DNA from: a virus | Lineage: Duplodnaviria; Caudoviricetes | Reading direction: 5' to 3' (one strand) | IMG/VR virus record: IMGVR_UViG_3300021399_003599 | DNA: 64,000 nt | Part shown: one piece after another, positions 4,104 to 15,032 of the stretch | Numbering within the stretch: the stretch's first letter is position 1 | Layout: each line of letters begins with the position of its first letter | The notes under the pieces: model-generated | Databases searched by the model: none | What the model saw: only the letters and a program-made list of their open reading frames with translations | What the model was told of the DNA's origin: nothing | Made by a program: the position numbers and the translations under genes

Positions 4104-5234
4104 TTAATAATCTATATCAGTATAGTTAAAAGGACAAAGATCATCAATCTTACCGTACTTGCGGGCAGCGAACAAAAACTTCTTGTGCTTAGAATAGAGA
4201 GGATCACCTAAAACCTTGAGAGCATACTCCTTCTGAGTTCGATCGTTGTACAAGACAAGAGCTGAATTCCAAAGAGAAGCCATGTGATAAATCTTATACA
4301 AATGACGATCTACGACATTCTTAACCTCCTCAATGTTAGCCATAACATCATCTGAAAAACCAAAGACCTTGAGATCATGATGGTTCGAGTACTCAAGCCA
4401 CTGCGCGAAGTTAGTCTTCTCTAACTCCGCAATAAATCCCTTGTCCCAGTTATAACGCAGAGCCCGCAGGGCAAGATAAGAATCCTGCTTAAACTTAATC
4501 AGCTTTCCATCGAAGAAATGAATAACCATTCCCTCAGCGTTCTCTCGCTCAGGAAGAGCAAGAGCCTCCCCAAGAGTCTCACAGTTTAGACGCTGGGCAA
4601 CAGAAAATCCATTCTGCTCCCACTCAGAATTGAGTAAGCATCCCTCAGTCCAACTTCCCGTCTCGATATCAACATAACCAAGAAGAACAATGTCTCGGTG
4701 CGGATAATGAATTACATGCTCCTCGGGATCCAATAGCTCAAACAGAAAAGTCTTGTGCGGGAAACGCTCTATCATGTGCTTCGCGCACATATACATTCGA
4801 CTATTGGAATGAAGGAACTCAGTAAACGACAAAGCAATCTCACTATCAAGGCGTCCGCGAGTAGAAAGAGCCGGCTCTCCGTTGTCATCCCACAGAATGC
4901 CCAGAGAACCATCAAGCTTATCTACAGCAATTACATTAGCATTAAAGTTAGGCTTAAAAGTAGACTCAAAGCTTCCCTCCTCATCGCAGAGATGATAGGT
5001 TCCCTGCTCCTGCTCAATGGTGAAAAACTTAGCGAAAGGTCGAGCAATAACGTTATCGTTCTTATCGCAGATCAACCCACGACACACCGTGGTCTCTATC
5101 GTCCAGTATCCATCATAGGTAGCCTTAGGAGTATAATTATAAATAACCTTATCGTGATACTCACGAGCAGTGATGTACCCGTTCTCAATGTCCTCACGAA
5201 GCTTCTGAATGTTAACAAGCTGATCGAGCTTCAT
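4104..5234 (-). CDS. T4 Rnl1/RnlA-like RNA ligase
   Basis: IYNY...CRGLI...ARPFAKFF; motif I KLDGSLG; STRG; TFLFEL; motif IV EGMVI; IKFK. Confidence 0.9.
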   Translation of the reverse strand: MKLDQLVNIQKLREDIENGYITAREYHDKVIYNYTPKATYDGYWTIETTVCRGLICDKNDNVIARPFAKFFTIEQEQGTYHLCDEEGSFESTFKPNFNANVIAVDKLDGSLGILWDDNGEPALSTRGRLDSEIALSFTEFLHSNSRMYMCAKHMIERFPHKTFLFELLDPEEHVIHYPHRDIVLLGYVDIETGSWTEGCLLNSEWEQNGFSVAQRLNCETLGEALALPERENAEGMVIHFFDGKLIKFKQDSYLALRALRYNWDKGFIAELEKTNFAQWLEYSNHHDLKVFGFSDDVMANIEEVKNVVDRHLYKIYHMASLWNSALVLYNDRTQKEYALKVLGDPLYSKHKKFLFAARKYGKIDDLCPFNYTDIDY

Positions 5235-7177: not shown

Positions 7178-7606
7178 TTACCACCAAAGACTGGGAATTA
7201 TCTCCGCTAAAATAGACAGAGCTGCTTTTTCATACTCGGGTGTTCGGAAAATATTCTCGTCTTTTAATGCTTTTTCTATATATTGACAAATTAAAAGACA
7301 AGTTTCTCGTTTTGTCAGCTCAACTTTTTCTCGGATGGGTTTATCTTTTTCCGTCCATCCTGTAATTATATACGCTTCTATTTTATGAGAGTCAAGATCT
7401 ACTATTTTATCTGCAATATCAAGATAAACTTTAATGTGCTCATACAGCCATGTCATCAGAGTATAATCTAAAGAATAGGTTTCACGTAAATCAAAAGCAT
7501 GTTTCTCTTTATCTTTTTTATTAACCTTTTTGGAAGAATTAAAGACACAATCTTCCTTTGAAGATATCCCTATCTTATTTAGATAATAATGATGACGTTT
7601 TGACAT
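7178..7606 (-). CDS. hypothetical protein
   Basis: 142 aa ORF ending PSLWW. Confidence 0.75.
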   Translation of the reverse strand: MSKRHHYYLNKIGISSKEDCVFNSSKKVNKKDKEKHAFDLRETYSLDYTLMTWLYEHIKVYLDIADKIVDLDSHKIEAYIITGWTEKDKPIREKVELTKRETCLLICQYIEKALKDENIFRTPEYEKAALSILAEIIPSLWW

Positions 7607-7625: not shown

Positions 7626-7735
7626 ATCAAACGGACATTTTGAGAATTCTAAAAAAATGTTAGAATCGAACTAACCTTAATTGTTTTTAAGACAAAATTT
7701 TCACCTTGAAGTAAGAACTCTCCCATCACGTTGAT
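7626..7735 (-). ncRNA. Y-RNA-like ncRNA copy 1, with anticodon-like arm and T arm
   Basis: ATCAACG-T-GATG-G-GAGAGTTCT-TACTTC...AGAATTCTC-AAAA-TGTC-CGTTTGAT; internal GTTAG-TTCGATT-CTAAC. Confidence 0.7.
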
Positions 7736-7744
7736 TTTTAAAAA

Positions 7745-7915
7745 CCAGCCCGACGTCCTCTAAGAAGAAGTCAGTCTGTAAAGCGTCTATAAACATAGAC
7801 GCTTTGCATCGTTAAAAAAGCTACCAGTCTCGGTCTAGCTGTACCGAGCTTATCTCGGGGTTGACCGCGCATACACCAGCGATTTGCTCCTATCTTTCAA
7901 GATATATTCATCGTC
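7745..7915 (-). ncRNA. candidate structured RNA(s) between tRNA-like gene and Y-like RNA
   Basis: several hairpins (11-bp AAAGCGTCTAT stem, CTCGGT/ACCGAG) and T tracts; no ORF. Confidence 0.35.
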
Positions 7916-7916
7916 A

Positions 7917-7996
7917 ATCGCCAGGGTTGGACTTGAACCAACAATCTGCTGTCAGCGTTACCCGCCAGCCGTCTTGCCTTTAGACGACCCAGCGAC
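7917..7996 (-). tRNA. tRNA-like RNA with aberrant anticodon arm, no encoded CCA
   Basis: acceptor CGCTGGG/CCTGGCG, D arm GTCT/AGAC, T arm GTTGG-TTCAAGT-CCAAC; anticodon arm GCTG-GCG-GGTAA-CGC-TGA-CAGC. Confidence 0.6.
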
Positions 7997-8527: not shown

Positions 8528-8556
8528 ATTATATCATAAAATTTTTTATTTGTCAA
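8528..8556 (-). promoter_or_regulatory. sigma70-type promoter
   Basis: TTGACA-17-TATAAT. Confidence 0.8.
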
Positions 8557-10263: not shown

Positions 10264-10275
10264 GGACTTAAAAAA

Positions 10276-10470
10276 AGGTAGCATATTTCCACTTTCGTGA
10301 GGTATATACTAGACCCACTCATGAGCTTGCCTTGTTTTTCTTTTACATCTAGAAAACATGGCTTCAAAAGACTGTCCAGACTATCCTTGGTTGCCGTCTC
10401 GCCGCAGCCGTGCATCTCTGTAGAACGTATCACCAGGCGCTTGTTGTTTTACGTGTACAAGAAAACACAA
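10276..10470 (-). ncRNA. candidate ncRNA co-transcribed after tRNA-Pro
   Basis: about 195 nt non-coding with hairpins, ending in a T tract before the terminator. Confidence 0.35.
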
Positions 10471-10884: not shown

Positions 10885-10955
10885 TGATAGGCTCTGAATG
10901 ACTCGAACATTCATCTGCGGTTTGAGCGCCGATCTATCCATTGAACCAAGAGCCT
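10885..10955 (-). tRNA. degenerate tRNA-like gene with 3-bp anticodon stem (loop CTCAAAC), ends TCA
   Basis: perfect acceptor AGGCTCT/AGAGCCT and T arm GAATG-TTCGAGT-CATTC; shortened anticodon arm. Confidence 0.6.
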
Positions 10956-11113: not shown

Positions 11114-11225
11114 CTAGTTGTGATACTCTGTCCTTCTACCGGTATATCACACGTCCTTCCCTGCATATTTCCATGTATTCAGATGCCTTTCTGCTTATGG
11201 CATGGAAGGATCCCCTTCTAACTAG
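11114..11225 (-). ncRNA. candidate 112-nt multibranch ncRNA inside the tRNA array
   Basis: closing stem CTAGTT/AACTAG; TCCTTCC/GGAAGGA; ATGCC/GGCAT; GTGATAT/GTATCAC. Confidence 0.55.
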
Positions 11226-11230
11226 TTAGT

Positions 11231-11507: not shown

Positions 11508-11536
11508 ATTATAATATAAAAAAGCTTATCTGTCAA
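11508..11536 (-). promoter_or_regulatory. sigma70-type promoter for micro-protein and tRNA operon
   Basis: TTGACA-17-TATAAT. Confidence 0.75.
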
Positions 11537-12278
11537 GAAGAAGATAATGATCTATAACCGAAGCGTTTGTGTCTATAATAAATTGATTAATCTTTTCATA
11601 ATTAGGTGTTTGCGGCAACTTGCTAAAAATCTCTGCCTTTAAGAGACTTTCAGTTTCACGATGTTCAAGCTTATACCATTCAGGATCAATTTCAATTTGT
11701 AATCCCGCTCGTTTCACGAAACAACCATGTTTAATGTCTTTTAACTCTTCTGCATCAATATTAGTTCTATCAGTAAGAATCTCTCCTGTTAAAAGAGCTT
11801 CGGCTCCCATGCGGCAAGTGCGGCAAAAGTGATATTGACATTTGCTAATCTTTTCTGGGGTAACGCCAATTTGATTATGGATCATTTTATCAAGTCTTCT
11901 TTGTTCAGAAGTAGCAAAGCCAAAAAAAGTTGTAGCTATTTTTTTACTAATGAAATCTGCTTGATTCTCTTGGATCTTTTTTCCAACAACGCCCAGCTCT
12001 GCGTCTCGATGGATACCAAAAAACTCAATGATATTCGGGTTAGCCTCAGCTAACATCGCAACAAATTTATCAAAACTATAAAAACAAATATCTCCAGCGG
12101 ACATTCTCTTAGATTCAAAATCTTTAGATAGTAAAATATCTTCTGCAGATCTTACGATAAAACCTCTAATATCAATATCGGAATTTTCATCTGCGGTACC
12201 ATAAGCATGAGATCCCGCAAGATAAACACTATCACAACCTGTTGGACTAAATTGATCAAAGTAATTTTTGAATGACAT
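11526..12278 (-). CDS. RlaP-like (DNA pol beta superfamily) nucleotidyltransferase
   Basis: GSHAYGTADENSDIDIRG and ANPNIIE motifs; start MSFKN at 12278 with GGAG SD. Confidence 0.85.
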   Translation of the reverse strand: MSFKNYFDQFSPTGCDSVYLAGSHAYGTADENSDIDIRGFIVRSAEDILLSKDFESKRMSAGDICFYSFDKFVAMLAEANPNIIEFFGIHRDAELGVVGKKIQENQADFISKKIATTFFGFATSEQRRLDKMIHNQIGVTPEKISKCQYHFCRTCRMGAEALLTGEILTDRTNIDAEELKDIKHGCFVKRAGLQIEIDPEWYKLEHRETESLLKAEIFSKLPQTPNYEKINQFIIDTNASVIDHYLLLDR

Positions 12279-12295
12279 TTTTTCTCCATTAAAAA

Positions 12296-12559
12296 GTGAC
12301 TGAGGAGTTCCGCACGCTCCTCGCAAACCTGATGTTTATTTCTTCGTGCGGTGACACAGGCTTACCGCTTATAGCTCGTGCGCGCTATAGAAGAAGGACT
12401 TCCCTCTTGACAACGTGTAGGCAGGTGCCCCTCTAACCCTAACCTACGGAGGACCGGCGCCCTATTCTCGCCAGCCCACTCCCACAAGTATTCTTCCTCA
12501 TTAAACTAACCGCCCACGGAGGACAGTAAGGGACTCGAACCCTTATCCTTGTTTATAAA
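12296..12559 (-). ncRNA. circularly permuted tRNA-like domain fused to a structured 3' domain
   Basis: order: loop TTTATAA, ACAAG, T arm, acceptor hairpin ACTGTCC/GGGCGGT, D arm, CTTGT, then at least five hairpins. Confidence 0.65.
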
Positions 12560-12561
12560 CC

Positions 12562-13195: not shown

Positions 13196-13270
13196 TGGAG
13201 CTTCGTGGCGGTGCTGCCCCGCCGTCTGAGGTTTACAAGACCACTGTAATAGCTGTTATACTAACGAAGC
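13196..13270 (-). tRNA. tRNA-Thr(TGT) with non-canonical D and T loops
   Basis: loop CT-TGT-AA; T loop GGCAGCA; D loop lacks GG; CCA. Confidence 0.8.
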
Positions 13271-13333: not shown

Positions 13334-14776
13334 TTAACAGTACTTGTAGTTTGTATTGATATACTCTACAATACTGGTGTCGCTTGACTCCAATAGGTGA
13401 ATAAGATTGAAAATCTTCTCACTCAATGAAGTCAAAAGATGAACATTGGGGTTCTTAGGATTTGCTACCTGCGTATGATAATTACCTAGATCAAAGCTAT
13501 AACACTTACAATCACGATTATACTTCTTAGTATAACTATCAAAGCTGACAACTCCTCCACCCCAAGTATCCATAACCTGCATGTCGCTAACAATGAACAG
13601 TCGGTCATAGCGCTTCTTTAGCTGCTGAAAGGCTCCTCCAATTTCAGTCCCATAACCGAGACCGTCATTCTCGCACATATGATCAATGATTGAAAAAATA
13701 TTAACAAGCGGGTTATATCTATAAGTTTGAGCGTGAGTTCCAAACTTAACAAAAGTCAAATTTGGATTCTTAATATAAAGCATTGCCGCAAATACCGCTC
13801 CTACTTCCTTAATAGTGATGTTGCTTTTGGCGCTAATAAGATGTTCCATCGATCCAGAAACGTCCAAGAGAATAGCGGTATTACCTTCAAGAGAAGGAAC
13901 ATTCTGACAAGCAATTCGGAACGCCTTCTCCAGTGAATTCTGAACAACAGAAACACCAGGAGCATTTCGATATGCCTGATAAATTTGATAGGGGAAAACA
14001 AGCGACTTTAGAATGGCGGCTTCATTCTCAATCTGCGGGCACAGCCAATCCGTGATCCATTCAAAATTAATATTACCACAATTAAGAATGTTACGCAGAT
14101 TGCGGATAAGCGCTAGATAACCAAGCTTATGCTCTTCTACAAGACGCTTCCACTCTGCATCCTTCTCCTCAGGAGCAGCAGTTGAGATAGCAACCTCCCA
14201 AGTATCAGCCTTGGGTAGCGCATCATGCTTATAGGCGTTAATTGCGGGCGACGTAACGTGGGTAAGATTAATCAGATCATACATATTATACTGCTTACCA
14301 TTCATCTTATACTTTCCAAGAGAATGGATATTGAGAGTAGACAGATAATCTCCCGCTCCGCGCACAAGTGCGTGAGAGCGCTTACCGTTACCCATATTTT
14401 CAATAATTGAAAACACTTCTGCTACATCGTCTGGACGATGGAAGAAATTGCTAAAGTACATCCGCTTATTTTCGAACTGAACACTGTTAAGCATCGCGGC
14501 AGTGACCTGAGCGATTGACCGCATACCGAGCTCATTGCGGGCAAAGAAGCTGGCTCGTGCAACAAACTCCCAACCACACTCTTGGGCTACTTGCTCAGTA
14601 AGCTCGATATATCGGGCTAGCTGCTTGTCTGAAGTCTCATAGAATCGATCTTCAATATAGGAACTAAAAAGGAAATTAAGCCACTCACTAACAGGAGACT
14701 TAACATAATTAAGTCCACCTTCATAGCTATACTCTCGAGTAGCTTCGGCAATCTGCTTGGAATTAAACTTTGACAT
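13334..14776 (-). CDS. Ro60/TROVE-domain RNA-binding protein with vWA domain
   Basis: YEGG, FARNELGMRS, LGYLALIRNLRNI, SLVFPYQIYQAY; MIDAS LDVSGSM and IVSDMQ. Confidence 0.93.
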   Translation of the reverse strand: MSKFNSKQIAEATREYSYEGGLNYVKSPVSEWLNFLFSSYIEDRFYETSDKQLARYIELTEQVAQECGWEFVARASFFARNELGMRSIAQVTAAMLNSVQFENKRMYFSNFFHRPDDVAEVFSIIENMGNGKRSHALVRGAGDYLSTLNIHSLGKYKMNGKQYNMYDLINLTHVTSPAINAYKHDALPKADTWEVAISTAAPEEKDAEWKRLVEEHKLGYLALIRNLRNILNCGNINFEWITDWLCPQIENEAAILKSLVFPYQIYQAYRNAPGVSVVQNSLEKAFRIACQNVPSLEGNTAILLDVSGSMEHLISAKSNITIKEVGAVFAAMLYIKNPNLTFVKFGTHAQTYRYNPLVNIFSIIDHMCENDGLGYGTEIGGAFQQLKKRYDRLFIVSDMQVMDTWGGGVVSFDSYTKKYNRDCKCYSFDLGNYHTQVANPKNPNVHLLTSLSEKIFNLIHLLESSDTSIVEYINTNYKYC

Positions 14777-14791
14777 ATTATTTACTCCTTA

Positions 14792-14812
14792 CTATCACGT
14801 ATACAACGGACA
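14792..14812 (-). promoter_or_regulatory. leader hairpin mimicking the Y-RNA bulged helix next to the ro60 SD
   Basis: TGTC-CGT-TGTAT-ACG-T-GATAG immediately before T-AAGGAG. Confidence 0.6.
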
Positions 14813-14816
14813 AAAA

Positions 14817-14905
14817 AAGTGCGGATATTCTTTGTTTAGTTTATTTGTTCCTAAGATAAATTCCTATGTTTATTTTAGAAGTAACTAAACAACTATCACG
14901 CACTT
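14817..14905 (-). ncRNA. Y-RNA-like ncRNA copy 2
   Basis: AAGTGCG-T-GATA-G-TTGTTTAGT-TACTTC...ACTAAACAA-AGAA-TATC-CGCACTT. Confidence 0.8.
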
Positions 14906-14916
14906 AACACAAAATA

Positions 14917-15019
14917 TCGTGGAAATGCTTTAATTGGTTTGATTTGATTTAAAGGGTCTTGCTCTTTTTAAAGTAATATTTCCATAAAATATTGAAGTAA
15001 CCAATTAACTATCACACGA
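14917..15019 (-). ncRNA. Y-RNA-like ncRNA copy 3
   Basis: TCGTG-T-GATA-G-TTAATTGGT-TACTTC...ACCAATTAA-AGCA-TTTC-CACGA. Confidence 0.8.
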
Positions 15020-15032
15020 AGACTAACCACTT

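What the first reader, a model, noticed from the sequence alone, without database searches (positions are those of the whole stretch)
7626..7735. Fourth, remote Y-like RNA carrying an anticodon arm and a T arm
Seen: 7 kb from ro60 the same scaffold recurs (CG-U-GAUG-G-GAGAGUUCU-UACUUC...AGAAUUCUC-AAAA-UGUC-CG). Its loop contains UUGU-CUUAAAA-ACAA (7-nt anticodon-like loop, UAA) and GUUAG-UUCGAUU-CUAAC (T arm) in normal tRNA order, without a clear D arm. Established: YrlA RNAs mimic tRNA with T arm, closed acceptor stem and D arm. Inference: this is a different mimic topology that displays an anticodon loop, possibly a Ro60-tethered decoy for anticodon nucleases.
Basis: partly seen in the sequence, partly recalled or inferred. 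Interest (0 to 1): 0.78.

Follow-up and report, generated by a model that had tools for sequence, protein, structure and literature searches.

The report
Phage Y RNA showing anticodon loop
This phage gene makes a small RNA whose ends form the docking site for the ring protein Ro60 and whose middle copies most of a tRNA, anticodon loop included; the design recurs in many Ro60-carrying phages and may bait host enzymes that cut tRNA, but that role is untested.

Summary
Real. The minus-strand element at 7626-7735 carries the same Ro60-type handle as three RNAs before ro60; the motif occurs 4 times in the window, 0.04 expected. Correction: a D-loop remnant with GG is present, and the handle motif UACUUC doubles as tRNA positions 8-13. 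The RNA is therefore a tRNA body (D-like, anticodon, T arm, normal order) whose acceptor stem is replaced by the handle, so it should not be chargeable. I found 35 RNAs with this arm order. Stems covary. Of 26 seven-base loops, 23 keep U33 and all keep purine 37, but they show 19 different triplets, and 9 loops have other lengths. Ro60 is in 17 of 20 records found by RNA alone. The layout differs from YrlA but matches the published model of Deinococcus Yrn1 (6-nt loop), and a nuclease-inhibitor role was already proposed for YrlA. Best reading: Ro60-held bait for tRNA-attacking enzymes, shape-based rather than Leu-specific (0.4); rivals are a PNPase tether or a relic. Expression and binding are untested, and this copy's anticodon arm is not its predicted most stable fold. 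This scan noted anticodon-displaying Y RNAs on other genomes before.

The parts
7626..7735 (-). Y RNA gene with tRNA-like loop (about 110 nt; true ends not mapped)
   Evidence: identical in five near-identical records (about 99-100% over this region), one of them identical to the window over 9.6 kb
7708..7735 (-). 5' strand of the Ro60-type handle: lower stem, GUGAUGG with bulged U, upper stem, UACUUC
   Evidence: shared with three ro60-proximal RNAs; resembles the Rfam YrlA consensus ends
7700..7710 (-). D-like arm: 3-bp stem that reuses the UUC of the handle motif, loop with GG (G18/G19 equivalents)
   Evidence: GG in 13 of 13 short-interior homologs against 2.8 in shuffles; stem itself weak (P about 0.05)
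7681..7695 (-). anticodon-like arm, 4 bp plus 7-nt loop; triplet UAA (Leu) at 7689-7687
   Evidence: 4 of 5 model pairs change on both sides in homologs
7659..7675 (-). T arm, 5 bp with canonical T loop
   Evidence: pairing probability 0.98-0.99; all cells paired, 2 pairs change on both sides
7626..7650 (-). 3' strand of the handle (upper stem, A-rich bulge, UGUCC, lower stem); joined to the T arm by an 8-nt U-rich linker; no acceptor strand, no CCA
14816..15133 (-). three sister Y RNAs without T arm, directly before ro60 (14816-14905, 14914-15021, 15035-15133)
13334..14776 (-). Ro60/Rsr gene, 480 aa, TROVE plus vWA
   Evidence: Pfam TROVE E 7.5e-14; family profile hits Thermus phage Ro60 9KOP/9L5Y at E 1e-37 and Xenopus, human and Deinococcus Ro60
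8528..8556 (-). perfect sigma-70-type promoter, the likely source of a transcript running through tRNA-His and a tRNA-like gene into the element (inference)
   Evidence: 12 of 12 matches with extended -10
11526..12326 (-). RlaP nucleotidyltransferase (RNA repair), inside the tRNA cluster
   Evidence: Pfam PF10127 E 6.9e-11
4104..5234 (-). T4 Rnl1-type RNA ligase (RNA repair)
   Evidence: Pfam PF09511 E 3e-11

Best explanation
A phage Y RNA derived from a single tRNA gene. Its 5' and 3' ends form the handle that the phage's Ro60 binds and protects (inferred from homology and co-occurrence; about 0.9 that it is a Y RNA). The middle keeps the tRNA elbow (D-loop GG plus T loop) and an anticodon stem-loop but lacks acceptor stem and CCA, so it should not be charged or used in translation. 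Most likely it is processed out of the tRNA-cluster transcript and works as a Ro60-held bait or competitive inhibitor for host enzymes that attack tRNA, recognised by shape more than by the UAA triplet, alongside the phage's tRNAs, RNA ligase and RlaP. Shown: anatomy, covariation, Ro60 co-occurrence, conservation of loop shape. Inferred: expression, binding, folding of the arm in this copy, the bait role.
For: Covariation in 7 close homologs: 14 of 25 pairs change on both sides, 93% of cells paired against 42-56% for slid registers. In 35 RNAs with this arm order, 21 have a canonical 7-nt loop on a stem of 4 or more Watson-Crick pairs against 0.24 in shuffles; U33 in 23 of 26 and purine 37 in 26 of 26. 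No search pattern specified the loop, although the hairpin parser mildly favours 7-nt loops (the shuffles use the same parser). Y RNAs that lack T and D arms still show anticodon stem-loops, 9 of 62 against 0.22, so the loop can be kept on its own. Ro60 is in 17 of 20 records found by RNA pattern alone and in 6 of 6 near-complete virus records; in L230 this type lies directly before ro60. RNA repair genes are neighbours. Literature: YrlA proposed as competitive inhibitor of an anticodon nuclease (PMC7790460); a Ro60-like phage protein counters the Ppl defence (PMC11482910).
Against: The anticodon arm is not the predicted stable fold in this copy. Nine of 35 loops are not 7 nt, including a 90%-identical relative of L169 (L168, 8 nt) and one member of a 98%-identical pair (L341, 6 nt), so the loop is dispensable in some lineages. 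Only 6 of 13 short-interior RNAs have a canonical loop. Some triplets (AUU, AUC, UCA) are rare or absent in ordinary bacterial tRNAs (own knowledge), which fits drift. Homologs are related, so counts are not independent events.
Confidence: 0.4

Rival explanations
1. PNPase tether or inhibitor (RYPER-like): the RNA links phage Ro60 to host PNPase or another exonuclease, and the tRNA-like domain serves as a stable binding platform; the anticodon loop is kept only as part of the fold.
For: The closest solved relative of this Ro60 family is Thermus phage Ro60, which forms ternary complexes with its Y-like RNAs and host PNPase and dampens PNPase (PMC12135203). Yrn1, the same layout, is the proven PNPase tether (PMC4201824). 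D-loop GG is present in all 35 homologs while the loop varies.
Against: Does not explain U33/purine-37 conservation or anticodon hairpins retained in T-less Y RNAs. Deleting the Yrn1 T arm did not change complex assembly (PMC4201824).
Confidence: 0.3
2. Recent tRNA-to-Y-RNA fusion in slow decay: only the handle is under selection, the arms are leftovers.
For: A graded series exists, from a full cloverleaf inside the handle, to no acceptor, to a shrunken D arm, to no T arm. Loop losses occur between close relatives. This copy has a more stable alternative fold.
Against: Compensatory changes in the anticodon and T stems, at 67% identity between this copy and L169; loops keep U33 and purine 37 while the stems have turned over to A/U-rich pairs.
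Confidence: 0.15
3. Triplet-specific decoy that protects host tRNA-Leu(UAA).
For: The loop equals the usual Firmicute tRNA-Leu(UAA) loop (own knowledge). UUA is the commonest Leu codon in the 13 genes counted (199), and no tRNA-Leu(UAA) gene is called in the window. A single-base triplet swap occurs in a 98%-identical pair.
Against: The closest homologs show UGA, CUU, CAG or non-canonical loops; fast change fits drift as well as an arms race; more than half of the genome was not seen.
Confidence: 0.1
4. Cis-acting leader of the 142-aa gene that starts 20 nt downstream, or a working tRNA.
For: The element ends 20 nt before the start codon at 7606.
Against: Homologs are followed by a tRNA, another Y RNA, a promoter or ro60, not by this gene. 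No acceptor stem or CCA; below the tRNA cut-off and not called by ARAGORN.
Confidence: 0.05

Closest known systems
Deinococcus radiodurans Yrn1 (Chen et al. 2014, PMC4201824)
   Same: Ro-binding stem closes a domain with D-like features, an anticodon-position arm and a T arm; no variable arm; Ro60 partner.
   Different: Yrn1's loop has 6 nt and its handle resembles the metazoan helix. Here the loop is a canonical 7-nt anticodon loop and the handle is of YrlA type; the class is spread over many phages. I could not align the Yrn1 sequence itself.
YrlA (Rfam RF02553; PMC4201824; structure 10.1101/312249)
   Same: Handle resembles the YrlA ends (GNCGAA-like 5' motif, YUAY, 3' UGUC); tRNA-derived elbow; same strand as Ro60. 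YrlA-order RNAs with the same handle occur in related phages (31.7 bits).
   Different: YrlA has T arm 5' of D arm, a closed acceptor stem and no anticodon loop. This RNA has D, anticodon, T in normal order and no acceptor; no RF02553 hit; 5.6 kb from ro60 against the usual 4 kb or less.
Thermus phage phiLo Ro60 with Yrl1/Yrl2 (PMC12135203; PDB 9KOP, 9L5Y)
   Same: Phage-encoded Ro60 of related sequence (E 1e-37) with Y-like RNAs on the same strand.
   Different: Those RNAs carry CGAA and were not described as having tRNA arms; PNPase binding was shown there and not here.
Phage tRNAs and RNA repair genes that counter anticodon nucleases (PMC7824862)
   Same: Same neighbourhood: tRNA cluster, Rnl1 ligase, RlaP, TROVE protein.
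   Different: Those replace or repair cut tRNAs; this RNA should not be translated and could only compete or tether.

Membership tests
Y RNA (Ro60 partner, general) | 80-130 nt RNA whose 5' and 3' ends pair into a long stem with a bulged Ro-binding helix and a large loop domain | tested here: met
   about 110 nt; both handle helices covary, 8 of 15 pairs change on both sides
Y RNA (Ro60 partner, general) | Ro60 ortholog in the same genome, same strand | tested here: met
   ro60 at 13334-14776 minus strand; 17 of 20 homolog records
Y RNA (Ro60 partner, general) | Expressed as a discrete RNA and bound by Ro60 | not testable with these tools
YrlA (RF02553) | 5' motif GNCGAA(N0-1)G | tested here: inconclusive
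   variant CGUGAUGG, not an exact match; followed by the same UACUUC as GCGAAGG-type RNAs in L060, L063, L066
YrlA (RF02553) | T arm 5' of D arm with a closed acceptor stem between them; no anticodon loop | tested here: not met
   order is D-like, anticodon, T; no acceptor
YrlA (RF02553) | Covariance-model score at or above 69 bits | tested here: not met
   no YrlA hit at E up to 10 over the element
Yrn1-type Y RNA | T arm with an anticodon-position arm 5' of it and D-like features, closed by the Ro stem | tested here: met
   against the description in PMC4201824
Yrn1-type Y RNA | Metazoan-like Ro helix and sequence homology to Yrn1 | not tested
   Yrn1 sequence not available (no supplement held); the handle looks YrlA-like, so the shared layout may be convergent
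Yrn1-type Y RNA | Pseudouridine 55; tethering of Ro60 to PNPase | not testable with these tools
   T loop has the U55 position; no experiment possible
tRNA | 7-bp acceptor stem stacked on the T stem, discriminator and CCA | tested here: not met
   8-nt linker after the T arm, no acceptor pairing
tRNA | 7-nt anticodon loop with U33 and purine 37; T loop; D-loop GG | tested here: met
   the Levitt pair is not kept (A15 faces G48)

The most novel reading that the evidence does not exclude
Ro60-encoding phages keep a repertoire of Y RNAs that display swappable anticodon loops, in normal-order, permuted and arm-only layouts, as Ro60-held decoys that soak up or inhibit host anticodon nucleases; this RNA is the Leu(UAA) member.
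Probability: 0.2. Interest if true: 0.8.

Novelty: new variant of a known kind. Interest (0 to 1): 0.5.

Why it matters
What the tRNA-like domain of bacterial and phage Y RNAs binds is an open question in the papers read (PMC4201824, 10.1101/312249). A widespread phage class that keeps a canonical anticodon loop, with natural variants that swap or lose it between close relatives, gives ready-made test pairs for the decoy versus PNPase-tether question. It also shows a second route from tRNA to Y RNA (one tRNA in normal order, beside the dimer route proposed for YrlA). The class has no Rfam model.

Tried and rejected
No whole genome held; the nearest record G001 is a 19% fragment without a match; the 145-kb sister contig could not be searched, so Y RNAs outside the window are unknown. 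Rfam gave no family hit. A single-sequence Ro60 scan of viral contigs found nothing; the alignment did. Following the downstream 142-aa gene gave no diverged orthologous RNA (the syntenic contig had no DNA). Strain variants are identical over the element but too close to be informative. The alternative GAAA-capped hairpin of this copy was rejected as the family structure because homologs cannot form it. Sim and Wolin 2018, Sim 2020 and Boccitto 2019 are not held, so I cannot exclude that they describe this layout. T-loop conservation in my set is by construction and is not used as evidence; GG was required by two of the search patterns.

Full report
Setting. The window is part of a phage genome (DNA polymerase, helicase, topoisomerase II, anaerobic reductase; holin and GH25/CW_7 lysin; a contig identical over the 9.6 kb compared is 145.6 kb long). 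A Firmicute-type gut or rumen host is an inference from the lysin and from the sources of relatives. The minus strand carries a cluster of about 19 tRNA genes, Ro60 (13334-14776), RlaP and an Rnl1-type RNA ligase. A profile of the Ro60 family hits Thermus phage Ro60 at E 1e-37 and also Xenopus, human and Deinococcus Ro60.

Observation. The handle motif occurs four times in the window, three before ro60 and one at 7729, against 0.04 in shuffles. A model built on this RNA and six homologs recovers the three ro60-proximal copies as the best independent hits in the window, with one tRNA region scoring among them. Rfam's tRNA model scores 7651-7720 at 23 bits and places UACUUC at tRNA positions 8-13, followed by a D loop with GG. 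So there is a shrunken D arm that shares its 5' strand with the handle motif. After the T arm comes an 8-nt linker and then the 3' handle strand; there is no acceptor stem and no CCA. In this copy the anticodon arm is not the most stable predicted fold (4.4 kcal/mol worse, P about 0.01), but two real tRNA-Lys genes behave the same in that test.

Homologs. Loci around related Ro60 genes and DNA-pattern scans show one handle with several interiors: YrlA order (T, closed acceptor, D), normal order without acceptor (this type), a full cloverleaf inside the handle, and T-less forms. Seven close members give 14 of 25 pairs with changes on both sides, including 4 of 5 in the anticodon stem and 2 of 5 in the T stem; slid registers pair 42-56% against 93%. 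The sequences are related, so this is supportive and not a probability. The close members also lie 6-9 kb downstream of ro60, so the remote position is normal for the family; in a Bacilli genome bin the same type sits directly before ro60. Of 20 records found by RNA pattern alone, 17 encode Ro60, and all 6 near-complete virus records do; for scale, 66 of 50,697 GenBank phage records match this protein (a different method).

The anticodon loop. In 35 normal-order RNAs every one has a stem of at least 4 Watson-Crick pairs at the anticodon position (13 expected), 26 have a 7-nt loop (3 expected) and 21 a canonical loop (0.24 expected). U33 is kept in 23 of 26 and purine 37 in all 26, while 19 different triplets occur. 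The triplet changes between 98%-identical copies, and the loop is lost in some close relatives (6 or 8 nt). Among Y RNAs that have no T arm, 9 of 62 still show an anticodon stem-loop against 0.22 in shuffles, and many YrlA-order RNAs of these phages carry an anticodon-like loop right after UACUUC. The shape of the loop is thus usually conserved, its triplet is not, and it is not essential everywhere.

Mechanism. Shown: anatomy, covariation, co-occurrence with Ro60. Inferred: transcription from the promoter at 8556-8528 through tRNA-His, release by tRNA processing, Ro60 binding, and function. I rank a shape-based bait or competitive inhibitor of tRNA-attacking host enzymes first (0.4), because the loop consensus is kept even when the rest of the tRNA is gone and the neighbours are tRNA replacement and repair genes. 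A PNPase tether or inhibitor follows (0.3), being the only activity shown for a Y RNA of this layout and for a phage Ro60 (PMC4201824, PMC12135203). Then a decaying fusion (0.15), a Leu(UAA)-specific decoy (0.1), and a cis leader or working tRNA (0.05).

Comparison and novelty. It is a Y RNA by structure and context. It is not a YrlA member, since arm order and model score fail. It works like Yrn1 in layout, but membership of that lineage was not tested and the handle looks YrlA-like. The layout (PMC4201824) and the inhibitor idea (PMC7790460) are both in print in some form. What I did not find in the papers I could read is a widespread phage class with canonical, variable anticodon loops; three reviews were unavailable. 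Earlier notes of this scan report anticodon-displaying Y RNAs in other genomes; I reached the loop statistics for T-less RNAs before reading them, and they are not counted as support. Verdict: real, new variant of a known kind, interest 0.5.

Noticed in passing
window 12475-12560, minus strand: Handle-less circularly permuted tRNA look-alike (T arm, closed acceptor-like stem, D-like arm, ends pairing as an anticodon stem), followed by about 250 nt of GC-rich non-coding sequence before rlaP. Single-sequence fold is not significant.
   Followed up: partly
window 7917-7995, minus strand: tRNA-like gene with an enlarged, bulged anticodon arm; ARAGORN calls it Tyr, Rfam gives no hit.
   Followed up: partly
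window 7745-7805, minus strand: Two strong hairpins directly upstream of the element (z -6.3); possible processing or termination signal.
   Followed up: partly
window 14792-14798, minus strand: Lone 5' handle motif directly before the ro60 ribosome-binding site; possible autoregulation by Ro60.
   Followed up: no
window 10888-10955 and 13199-13270, minus strand: A shrunken tRNA-Leu(CAA)-like gene, and a tRNA-Thr(UGU)-like gene with a non-canonical T loop.
   Followed up: no
window 11115-11230 and 10265-10470, minus strand: Further non-coding stretches inside the tRNA cluster without Rfam hits that may be structured RNAs.
   Followed up: no
L001 9820, L011 659, L038 9835, L091 8026: T-less Y RNAs repeatedly show the same Ser(UGA)-type loop, also seen in L163, L169, L170 and in the YrlA-order RNA of L035.
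   Followed up: partly
L321, L332, L358, L367, L372: tRNA-like genes in gut phages of about 100 kb where the UUACUUC motif sits in or before the D loop and the 3' acceptor strand is kept; a different Y/tRNA hybrid.
   Followed up: no
L436 3614-5339, L437, L438: Near-identical strains carry an AAA_28 (NadR-like) gene and an NMN transporter inserted in the tRNA cluster, absent from this window.
   Followed up: no
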